Shown here: positions 8,137-58,802 of the stretch, piece by piece
Layout of the letters: the number at the start of each line of letters is the position of its first letter
Position numbering within the stretch: the first letter of the stretch is position 1
DNA from: Mobula hypostoma
Taxonomy: Eukaryota
Assembly (NCBI RefSeq): GCF_963921235.1
Contig: NC_086108.1
Coordinates: 49,354,001-49,418,000, forward strand
Length of the DNA stretch: 64,000 nt
Direction of reading: 5' to 3'
The notes under the pieces: model-generated
What the model saw: only the letters and a program-made list of their open reading frames with translations
The model's database searches: none
Told to the model about the DNA's origin: nothing
Program-made: the position numbers and the translations under genes

Positions 8137-9897
8137 TTTCAGTAAGTAAAAGTCGTAGTTCAATGATATAAATGTGATAGAAATCGTTTAGTGTTAGGTA
8201 TAGGTAAAGTGAATAAGAGTGGTTACATGTAAGAGAGTAAAGGGTACGGAGCGACGCCAAAATACAGCACACTCCATGGGTCCCCTGCTGGAAAGTCAGT
8301 ACAAGCTATCAAAATTGGAAATAAATGCTGCACCACAATTGTTGTACCTACCTCTTATAGTTTGTAGCCAAGTCCCACTGTGAAAGTGCAGTTGAAAGTA
8401 CTGTATTTGTTCCACCTTCTTACGCAGTTCTTTTCAGATAACAACAGCATGGTGCTTTTGTTTAGAAAAAAAAGACAATATGATATTATAGAATCTTGGT
8501 CTAAACAAATTGCAGCCTATTAATCAGACTTACCATACACCAATTCCTGTTGTAATTAAAATTATTTCAACCTTCAAGTCCTGACTCCTGCATTTTTATG
8601 CCTTGACTTGTTTGTCTAAGTTTAAAATCTTTCTTCCCGGTAATTAGCATATTACCAAAACTTTTTGTGCCTATGAGAAAATTTATGTCTAATCAATGGT
8701 CGCAAAATACAAAAGGATTGAAGTGAGTACAATTTTAAAATGCTGCAATTTCAGATCTTTGAAATGAGATCATATCTCAGAAATATTCATAAGATGATTT
8801 CAGCAGCATAAGTACGTGTATGCAGAGGTAAAATGAAAATCTTATTTCCAGCGGCTTTACCGGGTCATAGCATCATATAAACAGTATATTTAATTATACA
8901 CAATTTTTGTAAGAAAAACCAGTTAATATGGTATTAAGAGTTTCCTCAATTCACAAGAACAATAATGGGCTCGAATATATTGAATAGATGCCAAGGCCAT
9001 TCTTTGCATATCTTCTTTGTCTATCATAATGACTGCATCATTTTTCCAACAGTTGAGTATATAGTGATACACCAAAGTACACGGTTTTTATAGTTGTAAG
9101 ATAGAAAGAACACATGCAGAAAGTTCCAGTAAATTGCCATTAAAATGAAAATAAACTTCAGAGATACTTATTCCATAGTTTCTTGTTGTATTAGAAAAGA
9201 TATTCATCTTTGAATTAATTTACAATATGCTTCTTTCTGTAGTTAACCAGTGTTTAAACAGACAGCAGCCAATCCAACCTATCACCTACAAGGTTAGAAT
9301 TCTTAGGTTTGTAGTCTGTAACTAAAAATGGCTTTGCAAGCAGGAGCTCCTGTAACGTACATTGTCATGACATTGCATGTAATCTTTCGCACTATCAAGG
9401 GCCATCCATGGTCCAAACACACAAGGCCACCACACTGAGAGCAAAGGATGAAGCATTCATCAATAATATAAAAGTAATTAGCATTTCATGAAAGGAACCT
9501 TTGGAGGAGCTCAACCACACATCTTTTTTTTATGTATGTGTTCTTGATTTCATCCAGTCCAGACTCATCAAATGAGAAGATTGAAAAATTAGGGGGAAAG
9601 AACACGAGCCAAGCATAAAACCAACAAGGCCTCAATCCAGAAACTAAAATACCCATTGAAGTTCTAAAATTTGGCAGTTACCAACCTTAGTCACAATTTC
9701 TTAATCCCAAGTCTGACAAAAGATGGTCATGCCAGAAAATCTTAGAGATGGCATAATCAGACCTTCTTTAAGAAGAGACAAATACAATTTCTGTATCTTA
9801 AACAACAGGAATTCTGCAGATACTGGAAATTCAAGCAACACACATCAAAGTTGCTGGTGAACGCAGCAGGCCAAGCAGCATCTATAGGAAGAGGTAC

Positions 9898-9933
9898 AGT
9901 CGACGTTTCAGGCCGAGACCCTTCATCAGGACT
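9898..9933 (-). ncRNA. Minimal type I hammerhead ribozyme motif
   Basis: AGTC-CTGATGA-AGGGTCTCGGCCT-GAAAC-GTC^GACT: CUGANGA and GAAA core, stem I AGUC/GACU, palindromic ACGU stem III. Confidence 0.75.
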
Positions 9934-10663
9934 AACTGAAGGAAAAGTTAGTAAGAGATTTGAAAGTGGGAGAGGGAGGTGGAGATCCAAAATGATAGGA
10001 GAAGACAGGAGGGAGAGGGATGGAGCCAAGAGCTGGACAAGTGATAGGCAAAGGGGATATGAGAGGATCATGGGACAGGAGGCCCAGGGAGAAAGACAAC
10101 GGGGGGGGGGGGAACCCAGAGGATGGGCAAGGGGTAGAGTCAGGGACAGAGGGAGAAAAAGGAGAGTGAGAGACAGAATGTGTGTATAAAAATAAGTAAC
10201 AGATGGGGTACGAGGGGGAGGTGGGGCATTAGCGGAAGTTAGAGAAGTGGATGTTCATGCCATCAGGTTGGAGGCTACCCAGACGGAATATAAGGTGTTG
10301 TTCCTCCAACCTGAGTGTGGCTTCATCTTTACAGTAGAGGAGGCCGTGGATAGACATGTCAGAATGGGAATGCGATGTGGAATTAAAATGTGTGGCCACT
10401 GGGAGATCCTGCTTTCTCTGGCGGACAGAGCGTAGGTGTTCACCAAAGCGGTCTCCCAGTCTGCGTCGGGTCTCGCCAATATATAGAAGGCCACATCAGG
10501 AGCACCAGACGCAGTATATCACCCGAGACGACTCACAGGTGAAGTGTCGCCTCACCTGGAAGGACTGTCTGGGGGCCCTGAATGGTGGTAAGGGGGGAAG
10601 TGTAAGGGCATGTATAGCACTTGTTTCGCTTACAAGGGTAAGAAGCCGAAACCTCTTCTGGTG

Positions 10664-13600
10664 ATGCCTACACCGAAGAAGTTTAAATCCTCTCTTCGAT
10701 GGGAGTTCAGTGAAACCATCTCTCACTGCTCCCCATCTGTAATTTCTTTGGCTCTTCAACTTTTTGACCACATTTTGACTCAGGCTCACTATCACAGCCA
10801 TATATCCTTTCTTGGAACATGCCTCTGTCACCAACTTACTCCAGTTGGCTTTAGGATTCGTTTCCGAGCCCCTCAATTTTGATCTTCTGAGGATCCCAGG
10901 TACTCACATTTTATTGACTCTGCCTCTCGTCGCTTCTCCCATCAAGCTCTGAAGGCGACCCTCTGTGCCATGAGGAGGTATTTGGTGTCCCTATCCCAGA
11001 CCCTCCACACCTTCGGGACACTTTCTTCGCCGTCTGTAATGGTCCTATCCGTTATTTCATCCTTCGTCGGATCCATGCCTGCAATCGCCATTTTTTTGAC
11101 TTTGTCATGTTAGGCAAAGATCGCAAGATCCTACATCTGCGGATCCCAGAGCCTGCCGGCCCTGAAGCTAGCAGGCATGAACTTCAGTTTGCCTCTGCCA
11201 TTGATCTCACCGGCTCCAATACCTCAGGGCATATTCAAAACCCAAACTCCAACAACGACCATGGACACCTTCAAAGCGATTGTGCAACCACCAACTGCGA
11301 CTCCAGCCTTGAACTCCAGGCTGGGTCTTTATGTGCTGCTGTTGTGACTCCTGTCTCCCCTTCCCCCACCAATACTCTGCAATCCCTTCTCCCTCAGATC
11401 CCATCGTCAGCTCCTGGGTACTCAGAGGCTCCATCTTCCTCTCACCCCAACCCTCCCCTCTCCACTGACACCCCCAGCCTCCCCTTCCCCCCTCTGATCC
11501 CAGCTCTCATCCATGCATGGTCTTTACCATCCCCTCCGACCTTCAACTGTCGGAGGCAGAACGCTCTGTACTCAGTAAGGTCCTCACCTTTGTCCCCCTT
11601 CGCCCACACCTCAGCGAGTTCCGTGTTCACCATGATGCGGAACTCTTCTTCCGCCGTCTCCGTCTCCGAGCCTACTTCTTCAGCAAGGACTCTTCCACCC
11701 CCACCGATGACCCCTTCTCCCATCTTCAACCCTCCTCTTCTTCATGGACACCTCGCTCTGGTCTTTTGCCTGCTCTGGATCTCTTTATTGCTAACTGCCG
11801 ACGGGACATCAACCATCTCGACTTCACTGCATCTTGTTCCCATTCCAACCTCACTCCTTCCGAATGCTCTGCTCTCCACTCCCTCAGCACTAATGCTAAC
11901 CTTACTATTAAACCCGCCGATAACGGTGGTGCTGTTGTAGTCTGGCGTACTGACCTCTACCTTGCTGAGGCTCGGCGACAAGTAGCGGATACCTCTTCTT
12001 ATTTACCCCTCAATCGTGACCCCACTAAGGAGCACCAGGCCATTGTCTCCCACACCATCACCGACTTTATCCGCTCAGGGGATCACCCATCCACTGCTAC
12101 CAACCTTATAGTTCCCACACCTCGCATTTCCCGTTTCTACCTCCTACCCAAGATCCACAAACCTGCCTGTCCTGGCAGACCTATTGTCTCAGCTTGCTCC
12201 TGCCCCACCGAACTCGTTTCTGCATACCTCGACACGGTTTTATCCCCCCTTGTTCAATTCCTTCCTACCTATGTTCGTGACACTTCTCACGCTCTTAAAC
12301 TTTTCGATGATTTTAAGTTCCCTGGCCCCTACCGCTTTATTTTCACCATGGATGTCCAGTCCCTATATATTTCCATCCCCCATCCGGACGGTCTCAAAGC
12401 TCTCCGCTTCTTTTTGGATTCCAAACCTAATCAGTTCCCCTCTACCACCACTCTGCTCCGTCTAGCGGAATTAGTCCTTACTCTTAATAATTTCTCCTTT
12501 GGCTCCTCCCACTTCCTCCAAACTAAAGGTGTGGCTATGGGCACCTGTATGGGTCCTAGCTGTGCCTGCCTTTTTGTTGGCTTTGTGGAACAATCTATGT
12601 TCCATACCTATTCTGGTATCTGTCCCCCATTTTTCCTTCGCTACATCGACGATTGCATTGGCGCTGCTTCCTGCACGCATGCTGAGTTTGTTGACTTCAT
12701 TAACTTTGCCTCCAACTTTCACCCTGCCCTCAAGTTTACCTGGTCCATTTCCGACACCTCCCTCCCCTTTCTAGATCTTTCTGTCTCTATCTCTGGAGAC
12801 AGCTTATCCACTGATGTCTACTATAAGCCTACTGACTCTCACAGCTATCTGGACTATTCCTCTTCTCACCCTGTCTCTTGCAAAAATGCCATACCCTTCT
12901 CGCAATTCCTCCATCTCCGCTGCATCTGCTCTCAGGATGAGGCTTTTCATTCCAGGATGAGGGAGGTGTCCTTTTTTAAAGAAAGGGGCTTCCCTTCCTC
13001 CACCATCAACTCTGCTCTCAAATGCATCTCCCCCATTTCATGCACATCTGCTCTCACTCCATCCTCCCGCCACTCCACTAGGAATAGGGTTCCCCTTGTC
13101 CTCACCTACCACCCCACCAGCCTCCGGGTCCAACATATTATTCTCCGTAACTTGCACCACCTCCAACAGGATTCCACCACTAAGCACATCTTTCCCTCCC
13201 CCCGCCCCCCGCTTTCCGCAGGGATCGCTCCCTTCGCGACTCCCTTGTCCATTCGTCCCCCCATCCCTCCCCACTGATCTCCCTCCTGGCACTTATCCGT
13301 GTAAGCAGAACAAGTGCTACACATGCCCTTACACTTCCTCCCTTACCACCATTCAGGGCCCCAGACAGTCCTTCCAGGTGAGGCAACACTTCATCAGTGA
13401 GTCGGCTGGGGTGATATACTGCATCCGGTGCTCCCGATGTGGCCTTTTATATATTGGCGAGACCCGACGCAGACTGGGAGACAGCTTTGCTGGACACCTA
13501 TGTTCTGTCCGCCAGAGAAAGCAGGATCTCCCAGTGGCCACACATTTTAATTCCACATCGCATTCCCATTCTGACATGTCTATCCACGGCCTCCTCTACT

Positions 13601-13704
13601 GTAAAGATGAAACCACACTCAGGTTGGAGGAACAACACCTTATATTCCGTCTGGGTAGCCTCCAACCTGATGGCATGAACATTGACTTCTCTAACTTCCG
13701 CTAA
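10664..13704 (+). pseudogene. PLE RT-GIY-YIG polyprotein, interrupted by a stop and frameshifts
   Basis: ATG at 10664 (MPTPKKF...HISFLGTCL...PVGF), stop at 10880-10882, RT in 11517-13277, endonuclease in another frame ending at 13704. Confidence 0.85.
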
Positions 13705-14001
13705 TGCCCCACCTCCCCCTCGTACCCCATCCGTTATTTATTTTTATACACACATTCTGTCTCTCACTCTCCTTTTTCTCCCTCTGTCCCTCTGACTATA
13801 CCCCTTGCCCATCCTCTGGGTCCCCTGCTCCCCCCTTGTCTTTCTCCCTGGGCCTCCTGTCCCATGATCTTATCATACACCCTTTGCCAATCACCTGTCC
13901 AGCTCTTGGCTCCATCCCTCCCCCTCCTGTCTTCTCCTATCATTTTGGATCTCCCCCTCCCCCTCCCACTTTCAAATCTCTTACTAACTTTTCCTTCAGT
14001 T

Positions 14002-14037
14002 AGTCCTGACGAAGGTTCTCGGCCTGAAACGTCAACT
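14002..14037 (+). ncRNA. Minimal type I hammerhead ribozyme motif
   Basis: AGTC-CTGACGA-AGGTTCTCGGCCT-GAAAC-GTC^AACT (one stem I mismatch). Confidence 0.65.
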
Positions 14038-14876
14038 GTACCTCTTCCTAGAGATGCTGCCTGGCCTGCCTGCGTTCACCAGCAACTTTGATGTGTGTTG
14101 CTGTATCTTAGATGTGCTTCCTGTTTTTCGCCACAGGGATAGCCATTGTCTGGTTACACATTAACTGCCTCCTCCCAGTGACCTGAAGAGTTGCTCTGAA
14201 ATGCACAGTGCATGTTCCAAAGACAATGCAGGCAGCAACATCAGCCATTATTCATAGTCTCTTTTTAAGCTTACAAGAGTGCAGTTGGGCACTTTGGTCA
14301 GTAGGCCAAAGGGCCTGTTTCCGTGCTGTATAACATTGTGAATTAGTGAAGAGACTTGCCTCTCAAACACAGCTAGTTTCCTCTGTTCCAACATCAAAGT
14401 CAATCTGACCTGAGTCATCAAGCTGCAGTATGCAGACAGTATTTGCTTGCTTACACATTTGGAGACAACATGAAGTCTTTGGACTTCAGTTTGGATTGGC
14501 TCATCCTTTCAAGCTTCATTTATTGCAAGGTCTGCAGATATTAAACTTGCTTTATCAGCTACTACTCGATCCATGGACTGTAGTATCTTGGAAGTAATTA
14601 GCAGTTTAAATATGCCATTTTATTGAATGGTTTAATTATGCAGTTTGTACTTGGATATAAAGCACAAAACTATATGTTCTTCCATTTCAATTACAATTTA
14701 TACTCCATGTTAATCAAAGTTTTATATAAATCATTGCAGAAAATGGGCCGTTGTGAATGTTTTACAAATGTATTTGGTTATACTGACAGTTCCTGGTGGA
14801 TAATTTCCTGACTACAACAAACTATAATTATGCATGTGATAGAGTGCTAACGTAGTTATTCTTTGCTCACTTACAG

Positions 14877-15007: not shown

Positions 15008-15053
15008 GTACTTTTGTTTTCCCATTACTTCTGACAATTTTTTTTTTAAAAGT

Positions 15054-15187
15054 GCAGGTGAGGTCTTTCGTTAAGTAAGTGCATGAAAAGAGTAGAAATA
15101 TAATGCCAGAATTCTGCATGCTGTAAAAGAGTTGGCATTAGATTTCTATTCTTTTCATGCACTTTCTTAACAAAAGAGTTCACCAGC
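15054..15187. repeat. Inverted repeat/hairpin, 55-bp arms, 24-nt loop
   Basis: 15054-15108 vs reverse complement of 15133-15187: 48/55 identical, two of the differences are G-U compatible. Confidence 0.85.
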
Positions 15188-15389
15188 AGGCATTTTATAT
15201 GTTTTTAAGATTTTGAAATACTTAGTTGTGTGTGTTAATTTTGGAAATTCAGTGAAGTTTTTCTTAAAAAGCAGGATTATATCACAAATTCAAGAATACA
15301 TAAATGACAGTCTAATCTCATTAGTTGGAAACCCTTTGGGGACAGCAATCTAGAGCAAAATAAAATGATGGAAGGAACTATATGAATAC

Positions 15390-17585: not shown

Positions 17586-18689
17586 AATATGAAAAACATA
17601 AAAATAGAGATATCAACATTCTCTATACTGAGAATATTGAATGTTACTAAACCTAAAATTATTGGGTGAACTCGCATAAATGTTGTGGGCATTGGGACTA
17701 ACTATTCACTCTTCACCACAGATTTACAAAAATTCACACAAAATGACATGGTGGCCTTTACACTAAATAGGAGTCTAAAAGATATTTGTTCAATATTCTT
17801 TAAATGAGAGAAATTTTTTTCCCTGTCCACCTCCCCACATTCAATTCTCCCATTTTTATTTATTACCTTTCCTAATATAGTTAATCACCTAATATAAGCA
17901 GTTTATTTCCAAGTTAAGTATGTATAATTTTGTGGTGTGGATGAAGTGGAAGTATGTGGCCTCTTGACAGTAAAATTGCATTTATTTTGGCAGAAGTCAA
18001 AACATTACTTTGACACTGTTTTCCCACAATTTTTGTATTCAAGGGCAGAATATATGGAATAGATCTCCGAAACCTATCTGGCCACACAAGTCTGTGTTGC
18101 AAATTAATTTTTGGCACTTTAGAGAAGGCGTATGTGGAATGCTGAATAATTTGTCAGCCACTATAACATTTCTTGAAGCCAACATACAGGACTGATATTT
18201 TGAATAATAATTTAACAACTGCAATAAAAACTACTGTGCATTAAAGATACTGGCAGGAATAATACCATCAGTATCAAACCAATAATTATTTAAAGGTTCA
18301 AAGGTTAATTTCAAAGATTCAAATTGAAAACTCGTTCTTCAAAATTCTGGCCCAGAGCAGATCAATGGAATAGCAATTAATAAAATTACTGGTTTTAATT
18401 TATCTTCATTTTTTTTCTTATATTACTTTATTATCCCCTTGTGCCATAATCCCATATTCTTTATGCTCTAACCTTTTTTTTTGTTCTGTTCTCCCCTTCT
18501 CTCCTTTTCTGTATCATAGAACTTGTTTATCTTTAGCTTATTGTAGCTCTGAGTTCACTGATCAGGAATCAAAGCTGTTTCTCTCTATATAAATTCATAG
18601 CACTTACTGCACTACCTGTCTTTTTAATAAGGAGTTTACTAGTCAACTCAATATTTCAAGAACTTTCAGTTCTTTGGCCTAGATCGCCT

Positions 18690-19790
18690 TTTTCTAAACT
18701 ATGGACATCTAGTCCCATAACACTTCCACCCCCCTTCAAGGAGGGCCTTTCTGTTTCTTTCTGCACAAGAGACCCAAGTAGTTGCCCTTCAGCACCACAT
18801 CCTCCATCAGGTGGAGCTGGTTCTTGCCCTCAACAATTTCTCTTTTGGCTCCTTCCACTTTCACCAAGACAAAGACGTCGCCATGGTCACTTGCATGGGC
18901 CCTGGCTATGCCTGTTTTTTTGTTGGCTATGTGGAACAGTGCTGATTTTAAGCGTACGATGCTATATTAAGGATTGCATTGGTGCTGCTTCCTTTGCCCA
19001 TGCTGAGCTCATCAATTTCATCAACTTCACCTCCAGTTTCCATCTTGCCCTCAAATTTACTTGGCCCATCTCTGACACTTCTCTTTCCCTTCTCAGTCTC
19101 TCTTCTCAGTCTCTCTGCCTCCATTTCTGGAGGCAGGCTATTCACTGACATCTTTAAAAACATGTCTTTCACAGCTAGCTTGGCTACACAACTTACTAAC
19201 CCATCACTTGCAAAAATGCTACTCCCTTCTCTTAGTTGCTATGTCTCCGCTGCATTTGTCCTTGGAATGAGGCTTTCCATACTATAACATCTGAGATAAA
19301 TGAATAAGATTTCCCTTCTATCTCCATCAATACTGCCCTCATCTACATCTCCATTTACCACACATCTGTCCTCACCCCATCGTCCCACCTTCATAACAGA
19401 GATAGGTTCCCCTTAACCTATCAGCCACAAGCCTTCATATCCAGTGCATTACTCTCCATAACATCCACCATCTCCAATGGGATCCTGACACTAAGCACAA
19501 CCAATCCACCCTGCCCAGGTTTCTATAGGAATTGCTCTCTACCTGACTCCTTTGTCCACACGTCCCTCTATGCTGATCCCCCTCCTGGCACTTATCCTTG
19601 CGAGAGTGCCAGCTGCTAAAGCTGTCCCTACACACCATCATTTCAGGGCCCCAAACTATCCTTCCAGATGAGGCATCACTTCACCTATGGGTCTCGTCTA
19701 TTGTATCCGGGTGCTCCCGATGTGGCCTCCCCTACATCATTGTGGCGACACAGATCAGAGGACTGATTTATCAAGCACCTTCACTCTGCC
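18690..19790 (+). mobile_element. Old, degenerate PLE copy
   Basis: Colinear similarity to 12330-13550 (YIKDCIGAAS...HLALKFTW). Confidence 0.75.
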
Positions 19791-19824
19791 CACCACATTT
19801 CTCGTCACTACACTACAGAATGGC

Positions 19825-23784: not shown

Positions 23785-24599
23785 ATCCTCAGCCCCCTAC
23801 ATTCATGACTGTGTGGCCAGATTTTTTCTTAACTCCATCTGCAAGTTTGTAGATAATACCACCATCATGGGCCATATCTCGAATAGCAATGAGTCAGAGT
23901 ACAGGTCAGTGATAGAGAGCCTGGTGACATGGTGTCATTGACAACAACCTTTCTCTCAATTTGTCAGCAAAACAAGAGCTAGTCATTGAGCTTTTCATTG
24001 ATCCCTTTCACCAATCAACGTCCCGGCTCTTTACTTCACTCCCTCCCCATTTCACTTATCACCTACCACCTTATAGTTTTTCCTCTCTTTTCCCCAGCTT
24101 CTTGCTCTGGTCTTCTCATCTGGCTTTCCAGTCCTGATAAAGGCTCTCGGCCCAAAACTTGGACTCTTTACTCTTTCCATAGATGCTGCCCGGTCTGCTG
24201 AGTTCCTCCAGCATTTTGTGGGTATTCGCTTCAAGTTACAATGAGTGAGCATTGCCTTTAGCCTGTCCTGGTACAATCATGCCAACTCCAGGATGAAGAA
24301 AGCTCACCAGTCCCTCTACTTCCTTAGGAAGCTAAATAACTATTTACTGATGCACAATAGATGATGTTCTGTTGGGTGGACAACCTACCAGGAAAACGTG
24401 CAGTGACGAGGGCTCTGGCACTGAGTCTAGCTCCGTGGCTCAAAAGGGAAGGGGTGGGGGGAAGAAGGGAGAATGGTGGTAATAGGGAATTCATTAGTTA
24501 GGAAGCAGCCAGATTCTGTGAGCATGAAAGAGACTCCAGGATGTTATGTTGCCTCCCTTGTACCACGGTCAAGGACTTCGTAGATTGGGTCCACATCAG

Positions 24600-26957: not shown

Positions 26958-27410
26958 CGAGGGGTGATTGATAAGTTTGTGGCCTAAGGTAGAAGGAGTT
27001 AATTTTAGAAAACCTAGCACATTTATTTTTCAACATAGTCCCCTCCTACATTTACACATTTAGTCCAGCTGTCATGGAGCATACAAATCCCTTCTTTGTA
27101 GAAGTGGTCCACAGCAGGGGTGATTGATAAGTCCGTGGCCTAAGGTAGAAGGAGATGAGTTATACAGCTCTCATTACATGCACATGCAGTTCAACTCTTT
27201 GAGTGATTATGCAGAAAGTTAGAAGTTAATAACTCATCGAGGGCGATTGATAAGTTAGTGGCCTAAGGTAGAAGGAGATGAGAGGAGAAGAAGGAGAACT
27301 TCAAACTTGCTGCATAATCACTCAAAGAGTTGACCGGCATATACATGTAACGAGAGCTGTACAACTCATCTCCTTCTACCTTAGGCCATGAACTTAACAA
27401 TCACCCCTCG
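26958..27410. mobile_element. Mariner-derived MITE with internally reiterated termini
   Basis: TA|CGAGGGGTGATTGATAAGTTTGTGGCCTAAGGTAGAAGGAG ... CTCCTTCTACCTTAGGCCATGAACTTAACAATCACCCCTCG|TA; sits within a CR1 remnant (~26640-28480). Confidence 0.85.
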
Positions 27411-30245: not shown

Positions 30246-30532
30246 CTCTCTCTCTCTCTCTCTCTCTTCGACTGTCCATCAATTTTCAATGTTGACTGAG
30301 GCCTGGGCAAGGTAGTATGGAAGACCAGCAATTGCCCATGCTGCAAGTCTCCCCTCTCCACGCCACCGATGTTGTCCAAGGAAAGGGCACTAGGGCCGAT
30401 ACAGCTTGTCGTCGCAGAGCAATGTGTGGTTAAGTGCCTTGCTCAAGGACACAACACGCTGCCTCAGCTGAGTTTGAACTAGTGACCTTCAGATCACGAG
30501 ACTGATGCCTTAACCACTTGGCCACGTGCCAC
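30246..30532 (-). mobile_element. tRNA-derived SINE with (GA)n tail
   Basis: 11-bp TSD ATTATCAGAGT (30235-30245, 30533-30543); head GGCACGTGGCCAAGTGGTTAAGG (A box); core TGTGTCCTTGAGCAAGGCACTTAAC; homologous to 44834-45139. Confidence 0.85.
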
Positions 30533-42230: not shown

Positions 42231-42348
42231 GTTCCATTAGTACCCATTGCGATATCTATGGTCGGTGTAGCTGTAAACCAGGAGTGATGGGAGATAAATG
42301 TGATCGCTGCCAGCCTGGCTACCACTCACTAACTGAAGCAGGATGCAG
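42231..42348 (+). CDS. LAMC1: Laminin gamma-1 exon (LE repeat 3)
   Basis: tttcaAG|GT TCC...TGC AG|GTgatg; 118 bp; [39 protein letters not shown]. Confidence 0.95.
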
Positions 42349-42524
42349 GTGATGGGTGTTAGCTTACCTTTTATTTATTTGCTGATGTGAAGGTGGCTCA
42401 CTTAAATAATGTATTATGACAAATATTTAATATTGTCATAGGCAAATAGTATCGCACTAATATTAAAACACATACTGCATTTGAGAATTGATCCCCTCTT
42501 CCAGCAATCCTACATCAAGTTTTA

Positions 42525-44833: not shown

Positions 44834-45139
44834 TAGGCATCCGTTAGTCTCATGAGACCATGGATTTACACCTTGGAAGGTTTCCAAGGCGCAGGCCTGG
44901 GCACATGATTGTATGAAAGACCAGCAGTTGCCCATGCTGCAAGTCTCCCCTCTCCACACCATTGATGTTGTCCAAGGGAAGGGCATTAGGACCCATACAG
45001 CTTGGCACCAATGTTGTCGCAGAGCAACGTGTGGTTAAGTGCCTTGCTCAAGGACACACACACTGCCTCAACCAAGGCTCGAACTAGCAACCTTCAAATC
45101 ACTAGACGAACGCCTTAACCACTTGGCCACGCGCCAACA
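44834..45139 (-). mobile_element. tRNA-derived SINE (same family as 30246-30532)
   Basis: TSD CTG(C/T)GGTTTCTATT at 44820-44833 and 45140-45153; shared head and core. Confidence 0.85.
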
Positions 45140-45849
45140 CTGTGGTTTCTATTACCATGCTGTTAAGCACTGGAATGCAGCTGTGAGAGGCAAGTACTTT
45201 TTTTCCCCTTGCTATCATTAACTATTGGCACAATCCTCATCATCTCTGCCTATCTTTCCTTAAGTCAATCCTTTAGAAGCTTATACGTTGACCATACTCT
45301 GGTTCTACATGGCTAAGTGTCACATTTTTATTTGATAGCATTTCGTGCAATGTCTTGGGAATATTTGTTATATTAATGGATGTGTATAAAATTAACTTGT
45401 CTTTGTTGTTATTGCTTCAACTAGTTCACTGCTGGAGATTTGCATATTCCTTCTAATTTCCATATTAAAAATGTTTCAGATGAATTCCTTCCTTAGTTTA
45501 ATTGTTATTCCTTTATCATTCCTTTGATCTTAGGCAAATCTCTACATTTTCACTCTATTTTGCCCCTCCTTCATCCTCATGATAGTATCTTATGTCTTAA
45601 AGTGAAGAAATATTATGTTTCTTCTGATCAGGAAGGGAGGCGGCATATTTGTCTAGTTTTGGGGAGCCTATTTGCTGTCAAGCAAAGTAAGAGGTGTTGA
45701 GATCAGCATTGGTGTGGCTAAAATAATTAATAGTGATCAAGGTTTAAATGAAAACAACAGGAATTCTGCAGATGCTGGAAATTCAAGCAACACACATCAA
45801 AGTTGCTGGTGAACGCAGCAGGCCAAGCAGCATCTATAGGAAGAGGCGC

Positions 45850-45885
45850 AGTCGACATTTCAGGCCGAGACCCTTCATCAGGACT
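45850..45885 (-). ncRNA. Minimal type I hammerhead ribozyme motif
   Basis: AGTC-CTGATGA-AGGGTCTCGGCCT-GAAAT-GTC^GACT. Confidence 0.65.
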
Positions 45886-48091
45886 AACTGAAGGAAGAGT
45901 GAGTAAGGGATTTGAAAGCTGGAAGGGGAGGGGGAGATGCAAAATGATACGAGAAGACAGGAGGGGGAGGGATAGAGCCGAGAGCTGGACAGGTGATAGG
46001 CAAAAGGGGATACGAGAGGATCATGGGACAGGAGGTCCGGGAAGAAAGACGGGGGGGGGGGTGACCCAGAGGATGGGCAAGAGGTATATTCAGAGGGACA
46101 GAGGGAGAAAAAGGAGAGTGAGAGAAAGAATGTGTGCATAAAAATGAGTAACAGATGGGGTACGAGGGGGAGGTGGGGCCTAGCGGAAGTTAGAGAAGTC
46201 AATGTTCATGCCATCAGGTTGGAGGCTACCCAGACGGAATATAAGGTGTTGTTCCTCCAACCTGAGTGTGGCTTCATCTTTACAGTAGAGGAGGCCGTAG
46301 ATAGACATGTCAGAATGGGAATGGGATGTGGAATTAAAATGTGTGGCCACTGGGAGATCCTGCTTTCTCTGGCGGACAGAGCGTAGATGTTCAGCAAAGC
46401 GGTCTCCCAGTCTGCGTCGGGTCTCACCAATATATAAAAGGCCACATCGGGAGCACCGGACGCAGTATATCACCCCAGTCGACTCACAGGTGAAGTGATG
46501 CCTCACCTGGAAGGACTCAGTTCCCCTCTACTACCACTCTGCTCCGTCTAGCGGAATTAGTCCTTACTCTTAATAATTTCTCCTTTTGCTCCTCCCATTT
46601 CCTCCAAACTAAAGGTGTAGCTATGGGCACCCGTATGGGTCCTAGCTATGCCTGCCTTTTTGTTGGGTTTGTGGAACAATCTATGTTCCGTGCCTATTCT
46701 GGTATCTGTCCCCCACTTTTCCTTCGCTACATCGACGACTGCATTGGCGCTGCTTCCTGCACGCATGCAGAACTCGTTGACTTTATTAACTTTGCCTCCA
46801 ACTTTCACCCTGCCCTCAAGTTTACCTGGTCCATTTCCGACACCTCCCTCCCCTTTCTAGATCTTTCTGTCTCTGTCTCTGGAGACAGCTTATCTACTGA
46901 TGTCTACTATAAGCCTACTGACTCTCACAGCTATCTGGACTATTCCTCATCTCACCCTGTCTCTTGCAAAAACGCCATCCCCTTCTCGCAATTCCTCCGT
47001 CTCCGCCGCATCTGCTCTCAGGATGAGGCTTTTCATTCTAGGACGAGGGAGATGTCTTCATTTTTTAAAGAAAGGGGCTTCCCTTCCTCCACTATCAACT
47101 CTGCTCTTAAACACATCTCCCCCATTTCACGTACATCTGCTCTCACTCCATCCTCCCACCACCCCACTAGGAATAGGGTTCCCCTGGTCCTCACCTACCA
47201 CCCCACCAGCCTCCGGGTCCAACATATTATTCTCCGTAACTTCCGCCACCTCCAACGGGATCCCACCACTAAGCACATCTTTCCCTCCCCCCCCCTCTCT
47301 CTGCATTCCGCAGGGATCGCTCCCTACACAACTCCCTTGTCCATTCGTCCCCCCCATCCCTCCCCACTGATCTCCCTCCTGGCACTTATCCGTGTAAGCG
47401 GAACAAGTGCTACACATGCCCTTACACTTCCTCCCTTACCACCATTCAGGGCCCCAAACAGTCCTTCCAGGTGAGGCATCACTTCACCTGTGAGTCGACT
47501 GGGGTGATATACTGCGTCTGGTGCTCCCGATGTGGCCTTCTATATATTGGTGAGACCCAACGCAGACTGGGAGACCGCTTTGCTGAACATCTACGCTCTG
47601 TCCGCCAGAGAAAGCAGGATCTCCCAGTGGCCACACATTTTAATTCCACATCCCATTCCCATTCTGACATGTCTATCCACGGTCTCCTGTACTGTAAAGA
47701 TGAAGCCACACTCAGGTTGGAGGAACAACACCTTATATTCCGTCTGGGTAGCCTCCAACCTGATGGCATGAACATTGACTTCTCTAACTTCCGCTAGGCC
47801 CCACCTCCCCCTCGTACCCCATCTGTTACTCATTTTTATGCACACATTCTTTCTCTCACTCTCCTTTTTCTCCCTCTGTCCCTCTGAATATACCTCTTGC
47901 CCATCCTCTGGGTCACGCCCCCCCCCGTCTTTCTTCCCGGACCTCCTGTCCCATGATCCTCTTGTATCCCCTTTTGCCTATCACCTGTCCAACTCTCGGC
48001 TCTATCCCTCCCCCTCCTGTCTTCTCCTATCATTTTGCATCTCCCCCTCCCCCTCCAGCTTTCAAATCCCTTACTCACTCTTCCTTCAGTT

Positions 48092-48127
48092 AGTCCTGAC
48101 GAAGGGTCTCGGCCTGAAACGTCGACT
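48092..48127 (+). ncRNA. Minimal type I hammerhead ribozyme motif
   Basis: AGTC-CTGACGA-AGGGTCTCGGCCT-GAAAC-GTC^GACT. Confidence 0.75.
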
Positions 48128-48559
48128 GCGCCTCTTCCTATAGATGCTGCTTGGCCTGCTGCGTTCACCAGCAACTTTGATGTGTGTTGCAAGGTTTAAA
48201 TGAGATAGTTTCTTCTCCTTTTTCAAATCAATGAGTCAGTTGAAGTTAGGCAGATATCAGAGTTTGTTAGGTACAATTATAACTGCCAACCCTAAATGGG
48301 GAAGTAAGTGGTTCAGCCAAGATCTAGATACAACTCTACAGGACAGAAGGATAGAACAACCCAAGGCAGAACTTTCCTGATAACAAAGAAGGACAAGAAG
48401 ATATGCAGAGAAAGGGAAACATGGCATACGCCAGGATGATAATTGGGCTGAAGCTGGAAAGATCATAACACAAAATGTTAAAGGGAAAATGAGCCCACGT
48501 GTGTATGTGAAAATTGGCTGGCAGATCATAACAGTGAATCCACTGACTGTCTCATGGTT

Positions 48560-51768: not shown

Positions 51769-51905
51769 ATGCAAGCCAGGCTTTTTCAACCTGGACCCTC
51801 AGAATGCCCAAGGCTGCACTGCCTGCTTCTGCTTTGGCCATTCATCTGTTTGTAGCAAAGCTGAGGGCTACAGAGTAGAGCGGATCACAGCAAGCTTTGA
51901 TGCAG
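51769..51905 (+). CDS. LAMC1: Laminin gamma-1 exon (LE4 end / LE5 first half)
   Basis: ctgtAG|A TGC AAG...GCA G|GTgtta; 137 bp; CKPGFFNLDPQNAQGCTACFCFGHSSVCSKAEGYRVERITASFDA. Confidence 0.94.
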
Positions 51906-52660
51906 GTGTTACTAAGATTTTTAACATATGCTATTTAGTAGACGTTGTTTATGAAATTTTGAGATTTAAGGTTGAGTTGTCAAATATAGTGACATCCAGC
52001 TCATGCTCCAGTTGAAATGTTGCTTGATGAAAAATGATTACGTTCTCCGAATTCTCCTTGTCAAACATCTGACAAACCAACTGTAAATGGATGTATTCTC
52101 AGGTTGATATTGCACTTCATTTTAGTTTGTTTACTAATTTCTTGGTGAACTGCCTAGTAAATAGGAAGTGACAGTAAGCAGAGTTCCATCATTACAGCAT
52201 CCCAAATGGCTCTGCTGCTTTTATTGTTTCAAGCATAGACCCATCTTTGATCATCTCCTTGTACTTGTCTCTACCTATGCCCCCTCCCCCTTGCCTTCAC
52301 ATCTCCTCCTAGATCTGATTTTTTCTGAACAATTCCAATTGCCATCTACACTTCAGGAACCTCAATTAACTGCCCCTTGACTTTCCATTCTCCATGGTGT
52401 ATCTCCAACTATATGTAAACCACATCAATCTTCTGTCTCCTCATAACATACTATACCCTTTAAAATCATCACTCTATCACTGGATGTTCCCTGAGCTAGA
52501 TCCTTCAGATGCAGACTTGAATAGATGTAAAGGACAAACAAGTTTTATCTATTTAAGATTAAATCTGGATGAATCACACAAAGCACCTGCTTGCTTATCG
52601 AAGAGCGGCTCACATTTCTACCTTAAATTATTTCTGTTCCCTACTGCAACACATTTACTC

Positions 52661-52770
52661 AAACACGAGATTCTGCAGATGCTAGAGATCTAGAACAACT
52701 CAGCAGGCCGTGCAGCAACTGTGGAGGGGAATAAATTGTCGACAGTTCAGGCTGAGACCCTTCATCAGGA
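52661..52770 (-). mobile_element. Short PLE 3'-end fragment with decayed hammerhead
   Basis: Minus strand CTGATGAAGGGTCTCAGCCTGAACTGTCGAC plus the same terminal tail as the young PLEs. Confidence 0.7.
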
Positions 52771-54279
52771 TTCAAGCCACTCTGTTCTGTCTTCTATATC
52801 CAATAGAAAATGTTAGAAATTCATGGAACACTCTGCCATTAAAAATGACATAATATGGTTAGCTGTATTTGCTACGTTTCCTCTCACCCACTGGGCTGGA
52901 CTCCTAATGTTCTCTCAGCCCCACCCCAGAATTTACAGCCTTTCTGGTTTCTCCTATTTCTAGCTCTAGCTCCCTTGAACTACTCCAGCTAATCTGCTGA
53001 CAGCTCGGCTTCTTTTTTCCATCTCCATGTTAGCTGCAGTTGAGACCTGATTTCTCACTCCTGGTGCTGTTCCTGCTCTTTCAATTCCAGTGCCATTTCT
53101 ACTCTCAAATAATCATCCCATCTTGGAACCATGACACTAACCTTGGCTTCCTCCTCAAAAGTACTGGAATCTATTCCGGCCTCTCAAGATTCTTGCCCAT
53201 CTTACCTGTATTCATCCAGTCAGGTTGCCAATGATGGTATGCATTATGTTCTATTTTTCTTGCTATTTATTAATTTTTAGGCATCAGTGATAAAGTCTAG
53301 AATTTATCAGCCATTTTTAATTATCCCTGAGAGAGCTGACCTTCTGACCCTACTCTGTTTTGCTGAAGATGGAATTTGTTTTGACAAAGTGACCAAAAGG
53401 ATTATTGAACTTTACCAAGTGCTCTTGGGGTTGCACTTATCCAGACAAGCAGAAAGCATTCAATAATCCTCCTGATTTATGTTTAGTAGATGGTAGAATA
53501 TTTATGGGATGTCAGGAAATGAATTACTTACCTTAGGATACCCAGCCTTGGACCAGTTATGGTAGACACACTATTCATGTGCTGGTCCAATTGAATTTCT
53601 CGTCAATAGAATGTTGATGGTGCTATTTGGCAATCATAATGCCATTGTATGTCAAAGATTAGTTACCATATTCTCTTTTATTGTGAATGGTTGTTAGCCT
53701 GGAACATTTGTGATGCAAATGAAGTTTGTCACTTAGGAGCCCACTGACAAATATAGGCCGCCTTCATACAGACATTAGCTGCTGTTTGCTGAGAAGTTAT
53801 GAATAGTATTGAACATTGCACAATGATCAGTAGATATTCCTCTTTGTGACCTCATGGCAGAAGGTTATTGATCAGTTTTACTAGAGCTTTTTTATGCCAT
53901 TTTTGGTCAAATTCTACCTTGACATATAGGGTGGTCACTGTATTTCGCCTCTGGACAGGTTTGGTGAATGCCTTTGATCTAAAACTGAGTAATCCGGATG
54001 AAACCTACAAAGGTTAATGATGAGTACACATTACTTAATATCACTTCCCATCACTTTGCAGATGATTGCGATTAGGCTGACTGATCCGCCGGTTTGGATT
54101 TGTCTTTTTTTTGCTAGCACTGCACAATTTTCACACTGGTGGGTGGATACTCGTATTGTAACTGTAGTGAAGTACATTGTTTGAGATACAGAATATCCTA
54201 GAGCACATTTTCAGCACTACGTTTAGGATATTGTCTAGTGCCATAGTCTTTGCTGTACTCTCCACTGTTTCCTGCAGTC

Positions 54280-54537: not shown

Positions 54538-54667
54538 ATCTCTCTATCTCTCTCTCTATCTCTCTCTCTCTATCTCTCTCTCTCTATCTCTGTCTCTCTA
54601 TCTCTGTCTCTCTATCTCTCTATCTCTTTATCTCTCTATCTCTCTATCTCACTCTCTATTTCATTCA

Positions 54668-54711
<44 letters not shown>

Positions 54712-56042
54712 AACCTACACTTTATCCTTCCATCTTTGGCCATCCTAGCACTCTATTCCTGCTTATCCATTATATCCTATAAAAAAAATCCCTGTACCCC
54801 TTAAGAAAGCTAAAAATACCCTAACCTGTGCTCCCTCACCCATGCCCAGCAACCCTTTTAATGTGAATTCTTGCACCCCCAGATCCCTTAGATTAATTCT
54901 CATCATCTCTCTCTATCCCATACTTGCTGCGACTCAACTACATGTTCTACTGACTCCTTTTCCTGACATTCCTCAGTTTTCCCTATCGTTTTCAATGTTT
55001 TGTTTAACGTACAGTGCCCCAGCCTTAACCTAGTCCACACAGTTTCCTCTCTTCTGTATCGACTACCTATCCTAGTAGCTGCAACACTTTTTTTGTATTT
55101 GATATAAATGCCTCCCTTTCCCCTCCCTGTCCCATCTTTCTTTCCACATTTGGTTGATTTTTTTCCCAGATTACACACTTAACTTCTGCTTTACTGATAC
55201 TAATGTGCTTTTCTATATTTTCCTTCTTTAACGCCCTCTTTGCCAACTCATCCACCCTGTCATTTCCCTTCACCCCTACATGTGCTGGAACCCCTAGAAA
55301 TTTTATCTGACCTCCCTGATTTGCAATTCTTGTGACTGACTGAAGGACTTCATAAAGTATATCATGTCGACTGTTTGAGTGAAAAGACCGGAAACTTGCT
55401 AGAACTGGGGATGAATCTGAGCATATCAACACTTTGACTTGTCTAGCTTTCTCCACCGATTGCAACGCAGCCAACACTGCCAGCATTTCCACTGTATACA
55501 CCCCTAATTTATTAGATGTTCTTCTGCTGATTCCAACTTCTTTTGCTGGTATAGCCACCCCAAACCCTATCACTCCTGTTTCAGGTTCCTTAGCACCATC
55601 CATATAAATCTGATTATAATCACTATACTTTTCCATCACATGACAGTTAAATGCACTGACCAAATCAGTTTTATATTTTCCTATCCTTTTTACCTCGAAC
55701 AAATGCCAGTCTATGTCAGGCCATACAAGCTTCCATGGAGCTACAACCGGATAAACTACTGAAGGACTTATCCTTAGATCAAACACTCCACATTCTTTAG
55801 CAATATCATTCCCTACCCGACTAAAGTTATCCCTCTGAAACCTCCCATTTTCCCAGCGCTCCTGCAACACTCCTTTAACAGGGTGAGAATCATTGTGCCC
55901 CTGCAAATTAGCCCGGTAGTTTGCCATCAATTACATCATTCTTAGTTCCAAAGGCATTACTCCCATTTCTACCCGTAGGGCTGACACTGGTGATGTTTTA
56001 AAAGCCCCACTGCACACTCTCAAAGCCTGAGCCTGAATTACA
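54280..56042 (-). mobile_element. 5'-truncated I/Nimb-like LINE with RNase H domain
   Basis: ORF 55930-55067: YMDGAK...E.LAV..AL...ICSDS...VPAHVGVKGNDRVDELAK; then RLRLGH..LN...C..C.E.ESVEH; (GAA)n-like tail; TSD TGCAGTC (54273-54279, 56046-56052). Confidence 0.85.
54392..54708. repeat. Compound microsatellite (CTATCT)n / (CT)n / (CA)n
   Basis: Directly visible. Confidence 0.97.
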
Positions 56043-56943
56043 TCTTGCAGTCATATGATGTAAATTGACTTGGTTAAGACTTGCTTCTCTGGTGCTTGGT
56101 AACTAAAATTAATCATCCACTTGGCACTTCTGAACATGATTGAAAATGGTCCTAGAGTTACCATTTCCTAACGCAGTAGTGTAGAGCTTTGAGAATTTTG
56201 TTGTTTCTAGTATTGTAACTGGGACAGAGGTCATTCTCAACCCAACTTTTGGCATGGTTGAGCACAACATTCTCATCTGCTAATCTTGTACCATTGTTCA
56301 CAAGGTGGGACTGCAATCCCGTTTCCAGTCTTTTCTGTCTAATCATAACCAGAGAATCAGTAACTAATAATGAGTTTTCTTCCATTATGTTGTTTCCACT
56401 GGTGTTCCTAAAGCTCCTGTCTTTGCCTTCTAACTGTTTCTCACTTTTAATGTCCTTCATCAATACACTGCTGTCATATTTCCACAAGTAAGCAGATAGT
56501 ACAAAGTTCTGCACTTTAACTCTCAATTGACAGCCAGCTTGTTTGACATACAGTAACAGGTTTTCTCCAACCAAATATCTGGAAGCCTCTTGCTTTTGTC
56601 TGTGGAGCCTGAAACAAACACTGTTCCCTTTTCAAATATTTCAAACTAATCCTACATCTACATAATCTTGGTATCATGTTTGATCTTGCAAGGAACTTGC
56701 AGACCACATATTTGAGCCATCAGTGAGACCACCTTTTTTTAAATTTCTGTTTCAACTGTTGATCCACTTTAATATCATGTTTGCTAATAATTCAATAAAG
56801 CATTTTTGGACTTGAGCGATGCTAGAAGTGACAAATGAAAATTGTTAACACGAGGAATTCTGCAGATGCTGGAAATTCAAGCAACACACATCAAAGTTGC
56901 TGGAGAACGCAGCAGGCCAGGCAGCATCTCTAGGAAGAGGTAC

Positions 56944-56979
56944 AGTCGACGTTTCCGGCCGAGACCCTTCGTCAGGACT
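56944..56979 (-). ncRNA. Minimal type I hammerhead ribozyme motif
   Basis: AGTC-CTGACGA-AGGGTCTCGGCCG-GAAAC-GTC^GACT. Confidence 0.7.
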
Positions 56980-58577
56980 AACTGAAAAAAGTGCTAGTAA
57001 GAGATTTGAAAGTGGGAGGGGGAGGGAGAGATCCAAAATGATAGGAAAAGACAGGAGGGGGAGGGATGGAGCCTAGAGCTGGACAGTTGATTGGCAAAAG
57101 GGATATGAGAGGATCACGGGACAGGAGGCTATGCCTGCCTTTTTGTAGGCTTTGTGGAACAATCTATGTTCCAAACCTATTCTGGTATCTGCCCCCCACT
57201 TTTCCTTCGCTACATCGATGACTGCATTGGCGCTGCTTCCTGCACATATACTGAGCTCGTTGACTTCATTCACTTTGCCTCCAACTTTCACCCTGCCCTC
57301 AAGTTTACCTGGTCCATTTCCGACACCTCCCTCCCTTTCTAGATCTTTCTGTCTCTATCTCTGGAGACAGCTTATCTACTGATGTCTACTATAAGCCTAC
57401 TGACTCTCACAGCTATCTGGACTATTCCTCTTCTCACCCTGTCTCTTGCAAAAATGCCATCCCCTTCTCGCAATTCCTCCGTCTCCGCCGCATCTGCTCT
57501 CAGGATGAGGCTTTTCATTCCAGGATGAGGGAGATGTCCTCCTTTTTTAAAGAAAGAGGCTTCCTCTCCTCCACCATCAACTCTGCTCTCAAACGCATCT
57601 CCCCCATTTCACGCACATCTGCTCTCACTCCATCCTCCTGCCACCCCACTAGGAATAGGGTTCCCCTTGTCCTCATCTACCACCCCACCAGCCTCCAGGT
57701 ACAGCATATTATTCTCCGTAACTTCCGCCACCTCCAACAGGATCCCACCACTAAGCACATCTTTCCCTCCCATTCCCCCTGCTTTCCGCAGGGATCGCTC
57801 CCTACGCGACTCCCTTGTCCATTCATCCCCCCACATCCCTCCCCACCGATCTCCCTCCTGGCACTTATCCTTGTAAGCGGAACAAGTGCTACACATGCCC
57901 TTACACTTCCTCCCTTACCGCCATTCAGGGCCCCAGACAGTCCTTCCAGGTGAGGCAACACTTCACCTGTGAGTCGTCTGGGGTGATATACTACGTCCAG
58001 TGCTCCCGATGTGGCCTTCTATATATTGGCGAGACCCGAGGCAGACTGGGAGATCATTTCGCTGAACACCTACACTCTGTCTGCCAGAGAAAGCAGGATC
58101 TCCCAGTGGCCACATATTTTAATTCCACGTCCCATTCCCATTCTGATACATCTATCCACGGCCTCCTCTACTGTAAAGATGAAGCCACACTCAGGTTGGA
58201 GGAACAACACCTTATATTCCATCTGGGTAGCCTCCAACCTGATGGCGTGAACATTGACTTCTCTAACTTCCGCTAATCCCCCACCTCCCCCTCATACCCC
58301 ATCCGTTATTTATTTATATACACACATTCTTTTTCTCCCTCTCCTTTTTCTCCCTCTGTCCCTCTGACTATACCCCTTGGAGTTTTTCTGGGTTTTTCTC
58401 CCCCCTCCCCCTTTTCTTTCTCCCTCGGCCTCCTGTCCCATGATCCTCTCATATCCCTTTTGCCAATCAACTCTACAGCTCTCGGCTCCATCCCTCCCCC
58501 TCCTGTCTTCTCCTATCATTTTGGATCTCCCCCTCCCCCTCCCACTTTCAAATCTCTTACTAGCTCTTCTTTCAGTT

Positions 58578-58613
58578 AGTCCTGACGAAGGGTCTCGGCC
58601 GGAAACGTCGACT
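58578..58613 (+). ncRNA. Minimal type I hammerhead ribozyme motif
   Basis: AGTC-CTGACGA-AGGGTCTCGGCCG-GAAAC-GTC^GACT. Confidence 0.7.
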
Positions 58614-58802
58614 GTACCTCTTCCTAGAGATGCTGCCTGGCCTGCTGCGTTTTCCAGCAACTTTGATGTGTATTAAATGAAAATTGTTGCTGTTGCCATT
58701 GTAGTTGCAGTTTTATGTTATAAAAACTTATGATAGGGCAGCGGGCCAGCACATTGCCATGTTTGTGGAATAAAGCTAAGAGTTTTCTCTGCCGGCCTGT
58801 AG

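What the first reader, a model, noticed from the sequence alone, without database searches (positions are those of the whole stretch)
9791..58688. Three independent PLE insertions share one tail-out inverted architecture with a fixed ~35-nt asymmetry
Seen: each insertion is TSD - inverted 3' end - variably truncated forward copy - TSD, with TSDs of 10, 13 and 14 bp. Arm pairs are 9836-10642/13292-14100, 45787-46517/47460-48190 and 56883-57129/58428-58674. In all three the short inverted arm has an extra 35-36 nt terminal tail (9801-9835, 45752-45786, 56847-56882) that the long arm lacks. Internal junctions show only 1-2 nt microhomology where I can resolve them (T46517; GC 57128-57129). Established: inverted pseudo-LTR arrangements and short tail extensions occur in PLEs. 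Inference: both nicked target strands prime reverse transcription, one at the RNA end and one ~35 nt internal, and the two cDNAs are then joined. This differs from L1 twin priming because the sequence is duplicated.
Basis: partly seen in the sequence, partly recalled or inferred. Interest (0 to 1): 0.7.

Follow-up and report, generated by a model that had tools for sequence, protein, structure and literature searches.

The report
Two-armed Penelope retrotransposon insertions
Three copies of a common Penelope-like jumping gene in a ray-like fish genome each landed as two outward-facing pieces, one 35-36 bases longer at its end, which is the already described insertion signature of this class of element.

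Summary
Three insertions of one Neptune-type Penelope-like element (PLE) each read TSD, tail, inverted 3' arm, 5'-truncated forward copy, TSD. TSDs are 10, 14 (or 13) and 14 bp; the 35-36 nt tail is on the shorter arm in 3 of 3. A contig from another organism stops matching at the last TSD base of insertion 2 and continues off-element, which looks like an empty site. Each arm holds sequence the other lacks, so neither is a fold-back copy of the other: two priming events, one per target end, is the best reading. The architecture is published (Craig 2021, Arkhipova 2013), and so are two internal RT start sites at the tail ends and extension of both target strands (Frangieh 2024). 'One primer at the RNA end' is not supported. 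Junction microhomology is at chance level. Still open: whether the tail always sits on the shorter arm (n=3 cannot show it) and whether one RNA or two template the arms. Insertions 2 and 3 point to one source; insertion 1 has arms that split at family-wide polymorphic sites.

The parts
9791..9800 (.). Insertion 1, left TSD copy (10 bp)
   Evidence: exact repeat at 14101-14110
9801..9835 (-). Insertion 1, tail (35 nt), absent from the long arm
9836..10642 (-). Insertion 1, inverted arm (807 nt): part of linker, GIY-YIG EN, 3' UTR, hammerhead motif
9902..9929 (-). Minimal hammerhead core (CUGAnGA...GAAAC-GUC) in inverted arm 1
   Evidence: pattern match; not an Rfam gathering hit
10643..10652 (+). 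First 10 nt after junction 1: reverse complement of about 10623-10631 with one extra base; candidate snap-back insert
   Evidence: null 0.0038 for a match of 10 or more
10643..14100 (+). Insertion 1, forward copy (3458 nt), near full length: candidate ATG 10664, N-terminal region, RT, linker, EN ending 13704, 3' UTR; broken by a stop and frame changes
14006..14033 (+). Minimal hammerhead core in forward copy 1
14101..14110 (.). Insertion 1, right TSD copy
45738..45751 (.). Insertion 2, left TSD copy (14 bp)
   Evidence: contig of run X5 matches up to 45751 and then leaves the element
45752..45786 (-). Insertion 2, tail (35 nt; 36 if 45787 is counted)
   Evidence: 402 and 362 loose ends at 45752 in runs X1 and X5
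45787..46517 (-). Insertion 2, inverted arm (731 nt); hammerhead core 45854-45881 with one core change
46518..48189 (+). Insertion 2, 5'-truncated forward copy (starts inside RT); hammerhead core 48096-48123; 1-nt overlap at junction (46517)
48190..48203 (.). Insertion 2, right TSD copy (first base shared with element)
56833..56846 (.). Insertion 3, left TSD copy (14 bp)
56847..56882 (-). Insertion 3, tail (36 nt)
56883..57129 (-). Insertion 3, inverted arm (247 nt, 3' UTR only); hammerhead core 56948-56975
57130..58674 (+). Insertion 3, 5'-truncated forward copy; hammerhead core 58582-58609; 2-nt overlap at junction (57128-57129)
58675..58688 (.). Insertion 3, right TSD copy

Best explanation
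Each insertion is one integration event of a Neptune-type PLE. The element protein makes a staggered cut in AT-rich DNA leaving 10-14 nt 3' overhangs (inferred from the TSDs). Both 3' ends prime reverse transcription of sense RNA with little or no primer-template pairing, at two start sites about 35 nt apart downstream of the hammerhead motif: one just after the GU-rich hairpin loop, the other at the tail end. Both cDNAs run through the hammerhead cut site, so the template was uncleaved or religated there (inferred). They stop at variable points and their 3' ends are joined by host end-joining, giving head-to-head arms with tails outward. On the template I favour one RNA unit read twice, a leading RT from the upstream site and a trailing RT from the tail site (about 0.45), because it predicts one tail per insertion, on the shorter arm, and identical arms; two units of a tandem RNA (0.25) or two RNAs (0.3) remain open. 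Shown here: the anatomy, shared alleles, apparent empty site. Shown for another PLE in vitro: two internal starts, nicking and extension of both strands. Inferred: everything about this family's RNP and the joining step.
For: One TSD pair spans each whole structure and junction positions differ in all three. The tail is only on the short arm and the RT-coding body only on the long arm, so two template reads are needed. Arms of insertion 2 share 25 alignment columns against all other arms, arms of insertion 3 share 5. Run X5 (organism B) has a 1660-nt contig at flank depth matching 45116-45751 and continuing 1023 nt on nothing in the laid stretch; its flank differs from the window at 11 of 637 places (1.7%), close to the 13 of 731 (1.8%) between the arms, as expected if the arms were identical at an insertion of about that age. 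402 (X1), 362 (X5) and 21 (X14) contigs leave the element at the tail end into diverse A/T-rich sequence. Primer overlap with element is 0-2 nt at 6 of 6 outer junctions. PMC11167929 (main text read): PAc cleaves and extends both strands, starts at two internal sites that match the tail ends, needs no homology, prefers AT-rich DNA, uses uncleaved RNA, is predicted to be a dimer.
Against: PMC11167929 saw no difference in start site between the two target strands, so it gives no reason for fixed polarity, and Craig 2021 places the tail 'at either end'. The short-end position (about 45787) was not among the 24 loose-end rows shown of 4,977, so a 1:1 ratio of tail and short ends was not seen. The letters of the X5 continuation were not shown, so a single TSD joined to the right flank is inferred. 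Arms of insertion 1 differ at 45 of 806 places and split along family-wide polymorphisms at 3 of 18 diagnostic sites (post hoc P about 0.01), which the one-unit version does not predict. The predicted hairpin is no more stable than shuffles (z -0.5 to -0.7). Target AT content (70-86% against 59% for the window) rests on 38 bases.
Confidence: 0.75

Rival explanations
1. L1-like twin priming on a multi-unit (tandem or read-through) RNA: one target end primes at a downstream unit, the other at an upstream unit, so no RNA stretch is read twice and the duplication reflects redundancy in the RNA.
For: PLE loci are tandem or partial-tandem and PAc mRNA is proposed to hold several copies (PMC11167929, PMC2377424). 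Would allow the partly different arms of insertion 1, which share 4 alleles against the other insertions but split at 5-6 others. Forward copy 1 stops just upstream of the candidate ATG.
Against: No tandem or direct pseudo-LTR copy is in the window. Needs an upstream unit of 807 nt or more in the transcript. Gives no reason by itself for one tail per insertion.
Confidence: 0.2
2. Two separate RNA molecules held by a dimeric RNP (protein dimer or hammerhead dimer), one per target end.
For: Insertion 1 arms carry different alleles at sites that segregate across the family (45998: 23% and 45% other allele in X1 and X5; 45826: 67% and 88%). Minimal hammerheads are proposed to act as dimers (PMC4209133); PAc is predicted to be a dimer (PMC11167929).
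Against: Arms of insertions 2 and 3 share private alleles (25 and 5 columns), so both RNAs would have to come from one locus. The split in insertion 1 is post hoc, weaker over the whole arm (6 of 67 sites, null mean 2.9, P 0.057) and could be gene conversion or recurrent mutation in the oldest copy. Does not explain polarity.
Confidence: 0.22
3. Self-priming or fold-back: one cDNA or an antisense template folds back and the inverted arm is copied from it (the reading offered for rotifer Penelope in PMC3846280).
For: Published palindromes at inverted junctions in Adineta vaga. Junction 1 has a 10-nt inverted match next to the arm end (null 0.004).
Against: A fold-back copy can hold only what the first cDNA holds, yet the short arm has the tail and the long arm has the RT body in 3 of 3. 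Junctions 2 and 3 show only 5-7 nt inverted matches with one edit, within chance, and no junction is a centred palindrome. The junction 1 match is better read as a short insert made during joining.
Confidence: 0.06
4. Two independent insertions at one site, or later rearrangement or assembly error.
For: Very abundant family (285,676 contigs of X1 laid on the 2.35-kb stretch); insertion 1 arms are only slightly closer to each other (94.4%) than to insertion 2 (92.6-93.4%). No listed contig bridges a junction by the tool's 31-letter rule (X1 record 1 enters the tail by 21 letters).
Against: One TSD pair and no inner TSD in 3 of 3; same orientation pattern; shared private alleles in insertions 2 and 3; apparent site with neither arm in organism B.
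Confidence: 0.05

Closest known systems
EN+ Penelope-like element insertions with an inverted 5'-truncated copy and a one-sided 30-40-bp tail (Craig et al. 2021, PMC8557442, Fig. 2 legend; Pen2a_Av with 9-bp TSD and 31-bp tail, Arkhipova et al. 2013, PMC3846280; D. virilis 34-37-bp repeat and variable inverted termini, PMC2377424)
   Same: Inverted 5'-truncated copy at the 5' side, head to head; tail at one end; short TSD around the whole unit; RT plus C-terminal GIY-YIG; hammerhead motif near the 3' end.
   Different: No direct pseudo-LTR next to the inverted arm in any of the three; arms reach into the EN domain; no centred palindrome at the junctions; tail on the shorter arm in 3 of 3, whereas the papers say either end.
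PAc (Poseidon, Anolis carolinensis) in vitro TPRT, Frangieh et al. 2024, PMC11167929
   Same: Two ends 30-40 nt apart downstream of a hammerhead; AT-rich targets; no primer homology; products run through the hammerhead site.
   Different: Different clade (linker CX4CxxC here); hairpin loop is GU-rich on the sense strand, AC-rich in PAc; no open ATG frame found through the hammerhead and tail here; the paper reports no strand bias in start site and the text read does not discuss inverted insertions.
L1 twin priming (Ostertag and Kazazian 2001; seen only as described in PMC2246262, otherwise recalled)
   Same: Both sides of the target break prime reverse transcription; inverted segment inside one TSD pair; two cDNAs joined.
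   Different: L1 primes at poly(A) and at an internal site of one RNA, so the two segments do not overlap much (recalled); here both arms cover the same 3' region and there is no poly(A).

Membership tests
EN+ Penelope-like elements | Single ORF with RT followed by C-terminal GIY-YIG endonuclease | tested here: met
   Pfam RVT_1 E 4.4e-5 (below curated cut-off) in 11469-13274 and GIY-YIG E 8.1e-5 (above cut-off) in 47273-47794; order RT then EN in all three forward copies
EN+ Penelope-like elements | CCHH motif in the EN (two Cys between GIY and YIG, His downstream) | tested here: met
   VIYCxxCSRCGLLYIGET...EH...THF in copy 2 translation; motif as described in PMC8557442 passages
EN+ Penelope-like elements | Minimal type I hammerhead motif near the 3' end | tested here: met
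   core pattern in 6 of 6 arms with palindromic positions and no helix III, as in PMC4209133; no Rfam hammerhead hit at gathering score; cleavage not testable
EN+ Penelope-like elements | Optional 30-40-bp tail at one end; inverted 5'-truncated copy; short TSD | tested here: met
   3 of 3 insertions
EN+ Penelope-like elements | Partial-tandem arrangement forming direct pseudo-LTRs in active copies | tested here: inconclusive
   0 of 3 in this window; no genome held; all three copies are truncated or broken
Neptune clade | CX2-5CxxC linker between RT and EN | tested here: met
   CKRNKCYTC in copy 2; shared with Nematis per PMC8557442; the preprint 10.64898/2026.07.22.740005 reports only Neptune and Poseidon in its vertebrates
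Neptune clade | RT phylogeny groups with named Neptune elements | not tested
   no named reference sequences were on hand
Naiad/Chlamys | N-terminal GIY-YIG, no canonical hammerhead | tested here: not met
   EN is C-terminal and a hammerhead core is present
L1-type twin priming product | Poly(A) 3' end and non-overlapping inverted and direct segments | tested here: not met
   no poly(A); arms duplicate 247-807 nt; defining features recalled

The most novel reading that the evidence does not exclude
The two RT start sites are used in a coupled, ordered way: each insertion gets one short-start and one tail-start cDNA, and the tail-start cDNA is always the shorter, because a dimeric RNP reads one RNA unit (linear multi-unit or hammerhead-ligated circle) with a leading and a trailing RT. 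This would be a duplicative form of twin priming that explains the PLE inverted pseudo-LTR and the tail by one mechanism, and this very abundant vertebrate family would let it be tested by counting. I did not find this rule stated in the papers reached.
Probability: 0.3. Interest if true: 0.55.

Novelty: already known. Interest (0 to 1): 0.24.

Why it matters
As an observation it matters little: it is the published PLE insertion signature. How the inverted arm forms is still not settled (self-priming was proposed in 2013; later steps are called unvalidated in 2024). These three copies argue against fold-back and for priming at both target ends, and they point to two countable tests, tail polarity and arm identity, in a family with very many young copies.

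Tried and rejected
No genome is held for the window, so no genome-wide table of arm ends was possible. Pattern scans found 0 matches in viral contigs, metagenome contigs and prokaryote genome contigs. Rfam at gathering score gave only a tRNA-like hit at 30459-30531. The RT region had 0 PDB sequence matches at E up to 1. A search with the N-terminal 79 aa among longer proteins gave 1 hit of 12 candidates, which matched only residues 52-79 and did not show what precedes forward copy 1, so whether the tail leads into the ORF stays open. One search used 4 of 24 listed runs and one stretch (45100-47450); it showed 15 of 1,490 joints and 24 of 4,977 loose ends, none giving polarity; its depths are no copy number; bins without cover in X9 and X14 were not used. 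Hairpin stability is not above shuffles. Junction microhomology is not above chance. Older hammerhead-bearing ends could not be paired: for the one pair tested (40508/41176) no abutting TSD was found, and the others match each other at only 60-72%. Supplementary figures of PMC11167929 are images and gave no text; Fig. S2 may bear on tail position in genomic copies. Evgen'ev and Arkhipova 2005, Pyatkov 2004 and Ostertag and Kazazian 2001 were not read and may already state the polarity or a two-primer model.
Full report
Observation. Self-comparison of the window finds three insertions of one family, 91-93% identical to each other, each with an inverted arm pair at the coordinates given: 9836-10642/13292-14100, 45787-46517/47460-48190, 56883-57129/58428-58674. 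Exact direct repeats abut the outer ends: 10 bp (9791-9800/14101-14110), 14 bp (45738-45751/48190-48203; 13 if the shared C is given to the element) and 14 bp (56833-56846/58675-58688). Such a repeat of 10 bp or more arose in 0.00055 of 20,000 random flank pairs. The minus-strand arm carries 35-36 nt beyond the point where the plus-strand copy stops, in 3 of 3. Junction 2 has a 1-nt and junction 3 a 2-nt overlap; random joins give at least 1 nt in 40% and at least 2 nt in 13%, so this is not above chance. Junction 1 cannot be scored for overlap.

The element. The forward copies encode RT followed by a GIY-YIG endonuclease (Pfam RVT_1 below and GIY-YIG above the curated cut-off), with a CX4CxxC linker and the Cys/His pattern of PLE endonucleases. 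That is a Neptune- or Nematis-type PLE by the criteria in PMC8557442 (passages read); I ran no phylogeny. Copy 1 is near full length (3458 nt, candidate ATG at 10664) but broken; copies 2 and 3 start inside RT. All 6 arms hold a minimal hammerhead core like those in PMC4209133 (passages read); Rfam does not report it. Short ends fall 65-68 nt and tail ends 101-102 nt after the predicted cut site, each just after a GUU-containing stretch; the short end lies at the base of a predicted hairpin whose outer stems use the tail, but the fold is no better than shuffles. The one protein relative found is labelled by its source as from the ray Hypanus sabinus, and insertion 2 lies between laminin-like exons (Pfam hit for one of the two).

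One event per insertion. Each structure has one TSD pair and its own junction, so the inverted arm was made anew each time. Arms of insertion 2 share 25 alignment columns against all other arms and arms of insertion 3 share 5. I laid 4 of 24 listed runs on 45100-47450. In X5 (organism B) a 1660-nt contig at flank depth matches 45116-45751, ending on the last TSD base, and continues for 1023 letters that lie on nothing in the stretch, which holds the tail, the arm and part of RT. That looks like an empty site; the continuing letters were not shown, so the single TSD joined to the right flank is inferred. The flank differs at 11 of 637 places, close to the 13 of 731 between the arms. In X1 a contig identical to the window enters the tail by 21 letters, short of the tool's 31-letter rule, and X1 may be the source of the window. 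At the tail end 402 (X1), 362 (X5) and 21 (X14) contigs leave into diverse A/T-rich sequence; their weak consensus (agreement about 0.4) adds about 4 element-like letters, so tail ends in the family probably spread over about 35-40 nt. Against my reading, the short-end position was not among the 24 loose-end rows shown of 4,977, so I could not compare the two end classes. Older relatives in the window stop at about the same two points: three short-type ends (near 24240, 29890, 36050), two tail-type ends (41176, 52661) and one weak short-type end (40508) (judged by eye from the alignment).

Mechanism. The short arm has the tail, which the long arm lacks; the long arm has the RT body, which the short arm lacks. 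Neither can be a fold-back copy of the other, which argues against the self-priming reading offered for rotifer Penelope (PMC3846280, Discussion read). Read 5' to 3', each strand leaves the TSD directly into antisense element sequence, which is what two target-primed cDNAs would give, from a staggered cut with 10-14 nt 3' overhangs (inference). Overlap between TSD and element is 0-2 nt at all 6 outer junctions, so priming needs no pairing. For the anole element PAc, PMC11167929 (abstract, main text and start of Methods read; supplementary figures unreadable) shows cleavage and extension of both strands, two internal start sites matching the tail ends, AT-rich targets, uncleaved RNA as main substrate, and a predicted dimer. 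For this family I could not see what follows the tail in a full unit. At junction 1 the first 10 nt after the arm are the reverse complement of the arm's own last stretch with one extra base (null 0.004); I read it as a short insert templated during joining, though it could be native element sequence. Junctions 2 and 3 show nothing similar.

What stays open. 'Inverted' and 'forward' differ only by length, so the real claim is that the tail-primed cDNA is the shorter one. With one tail per insertion, 3 of 3 on one side has P = 0.25; under independent 50:50 choice at each end the whole pattern has P = 1/32. PMC8557442 says the tail is found at either end and PMC11167929 saw no strand bias, and the old pair 40508/41176, if it is a pair, would have the tail on the longer arm (no TSD found). 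On templates: insertions 2 and 3 point to one source locus. Insertion 1 arms differ at 45 of 806 places, share 4 alleles against the other two insertions, but split at 3 of 18 sites that separate insertion 2 from 3 where all six arms overlap, all in one direction (null mean 0.5; P 0.011, 0.003 with direction), and at 6 of 67 over the whole arm (null mean 2.9; P 0.057). The test was chosen after seeing the pattern. Two of the three strict sites appear among the 40 variant rows shown as family-wide polymorphisms. This hints at non-identical templates or later conversion. I put one RNA unit read twice at about 0.45, two RNAs at 0.3 and two units of a tandem RNA at 0.25, given two priming events.

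Comparison and verdict. PMC8557442 describes an inverted 5'-truncated copy adjacent to the 5' end and a 30-40-bp tail often present at only one end; PMC3846280 describes a copy with inverted pLTR, 31-bp tail and 9-bp TSD; PMC8969392 (passages read) lists both as curation hints. The architecture is therefore known, and the cause of the tail is explained in vitro. My searches did not return a paper stating fixed polarity or an explicit two-primer model for the inverted arm, but the library lacks most subscription papers, including the 2004-2006 PLE papers, which I did not read. Earlier AI notes on this genome report the same pattern several times; they are unchecked and not counted as support. 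Verdict: real, already known, interest 0.24, with a countable open question on polarity and template number.

Noticed in passing
window 18664-19795 (+): Older, about 66% identical Neptune-type relic (RT to start of EN), cut off at its 3' side; no inverted partner found.
   Followed up: partly
window 24127-24247 (+), 29886-29992 (-), 35947-36061 (+), 40508-40562 (-), 41043-41176 (+), 52661-52774 (-): Decayed hammerhead-bearing 3' ends of related families, stopping at either the short or the tail point; 40508/41176 could be an old tail-out pair with the tail on the longer arm, no TSD found.
   Followed up: partly
window 10643-10652: Ten bases after junction 1 are an inverted copy of the adjacent arm end with one extra base; candidate snap-back insert.
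   Followed up: partly
window 9836-10642 and 13292-14100: The two arms of insertion 1 carry different alleles at sites that are polymorphic across the family.
   Followed up: yes
window 45100-45140 and 45752: In 11 contigs of three runs the tail end is joined to the end of the tRNA-derived repeat seen at 44893-45136, suggesting repeated insertion next to that repeat.
   Followed up: no
window 45796 and 45849 (loose ends): A second abundant family shares the hammerhead core and tail region but differs between them.
   Followed up: no
window 27116-27408 and 15053-15188: Two palindromic elements (arms about 112 and 56 nt) unrelated to the PLE; MITE-like.
   Followed up: no
window 30299-30531 and 44893-45136: Two 83% identical copies of a short repeat with a tRNA-like head (Rfam tRNA hit 30459-30531), probably a SINE.
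   Followed up: no
window about 42230-42350 and 51770-51910 (+): Laminin EGF-type exons (Pfam hit for the first; gamma-chain likeness recalled); insertion 2 lies between them.
   Followed up: no
window 55067-55930 (-): RNase H-coding relic of another retroelement, just left of insertion 3.
   Followed up: no
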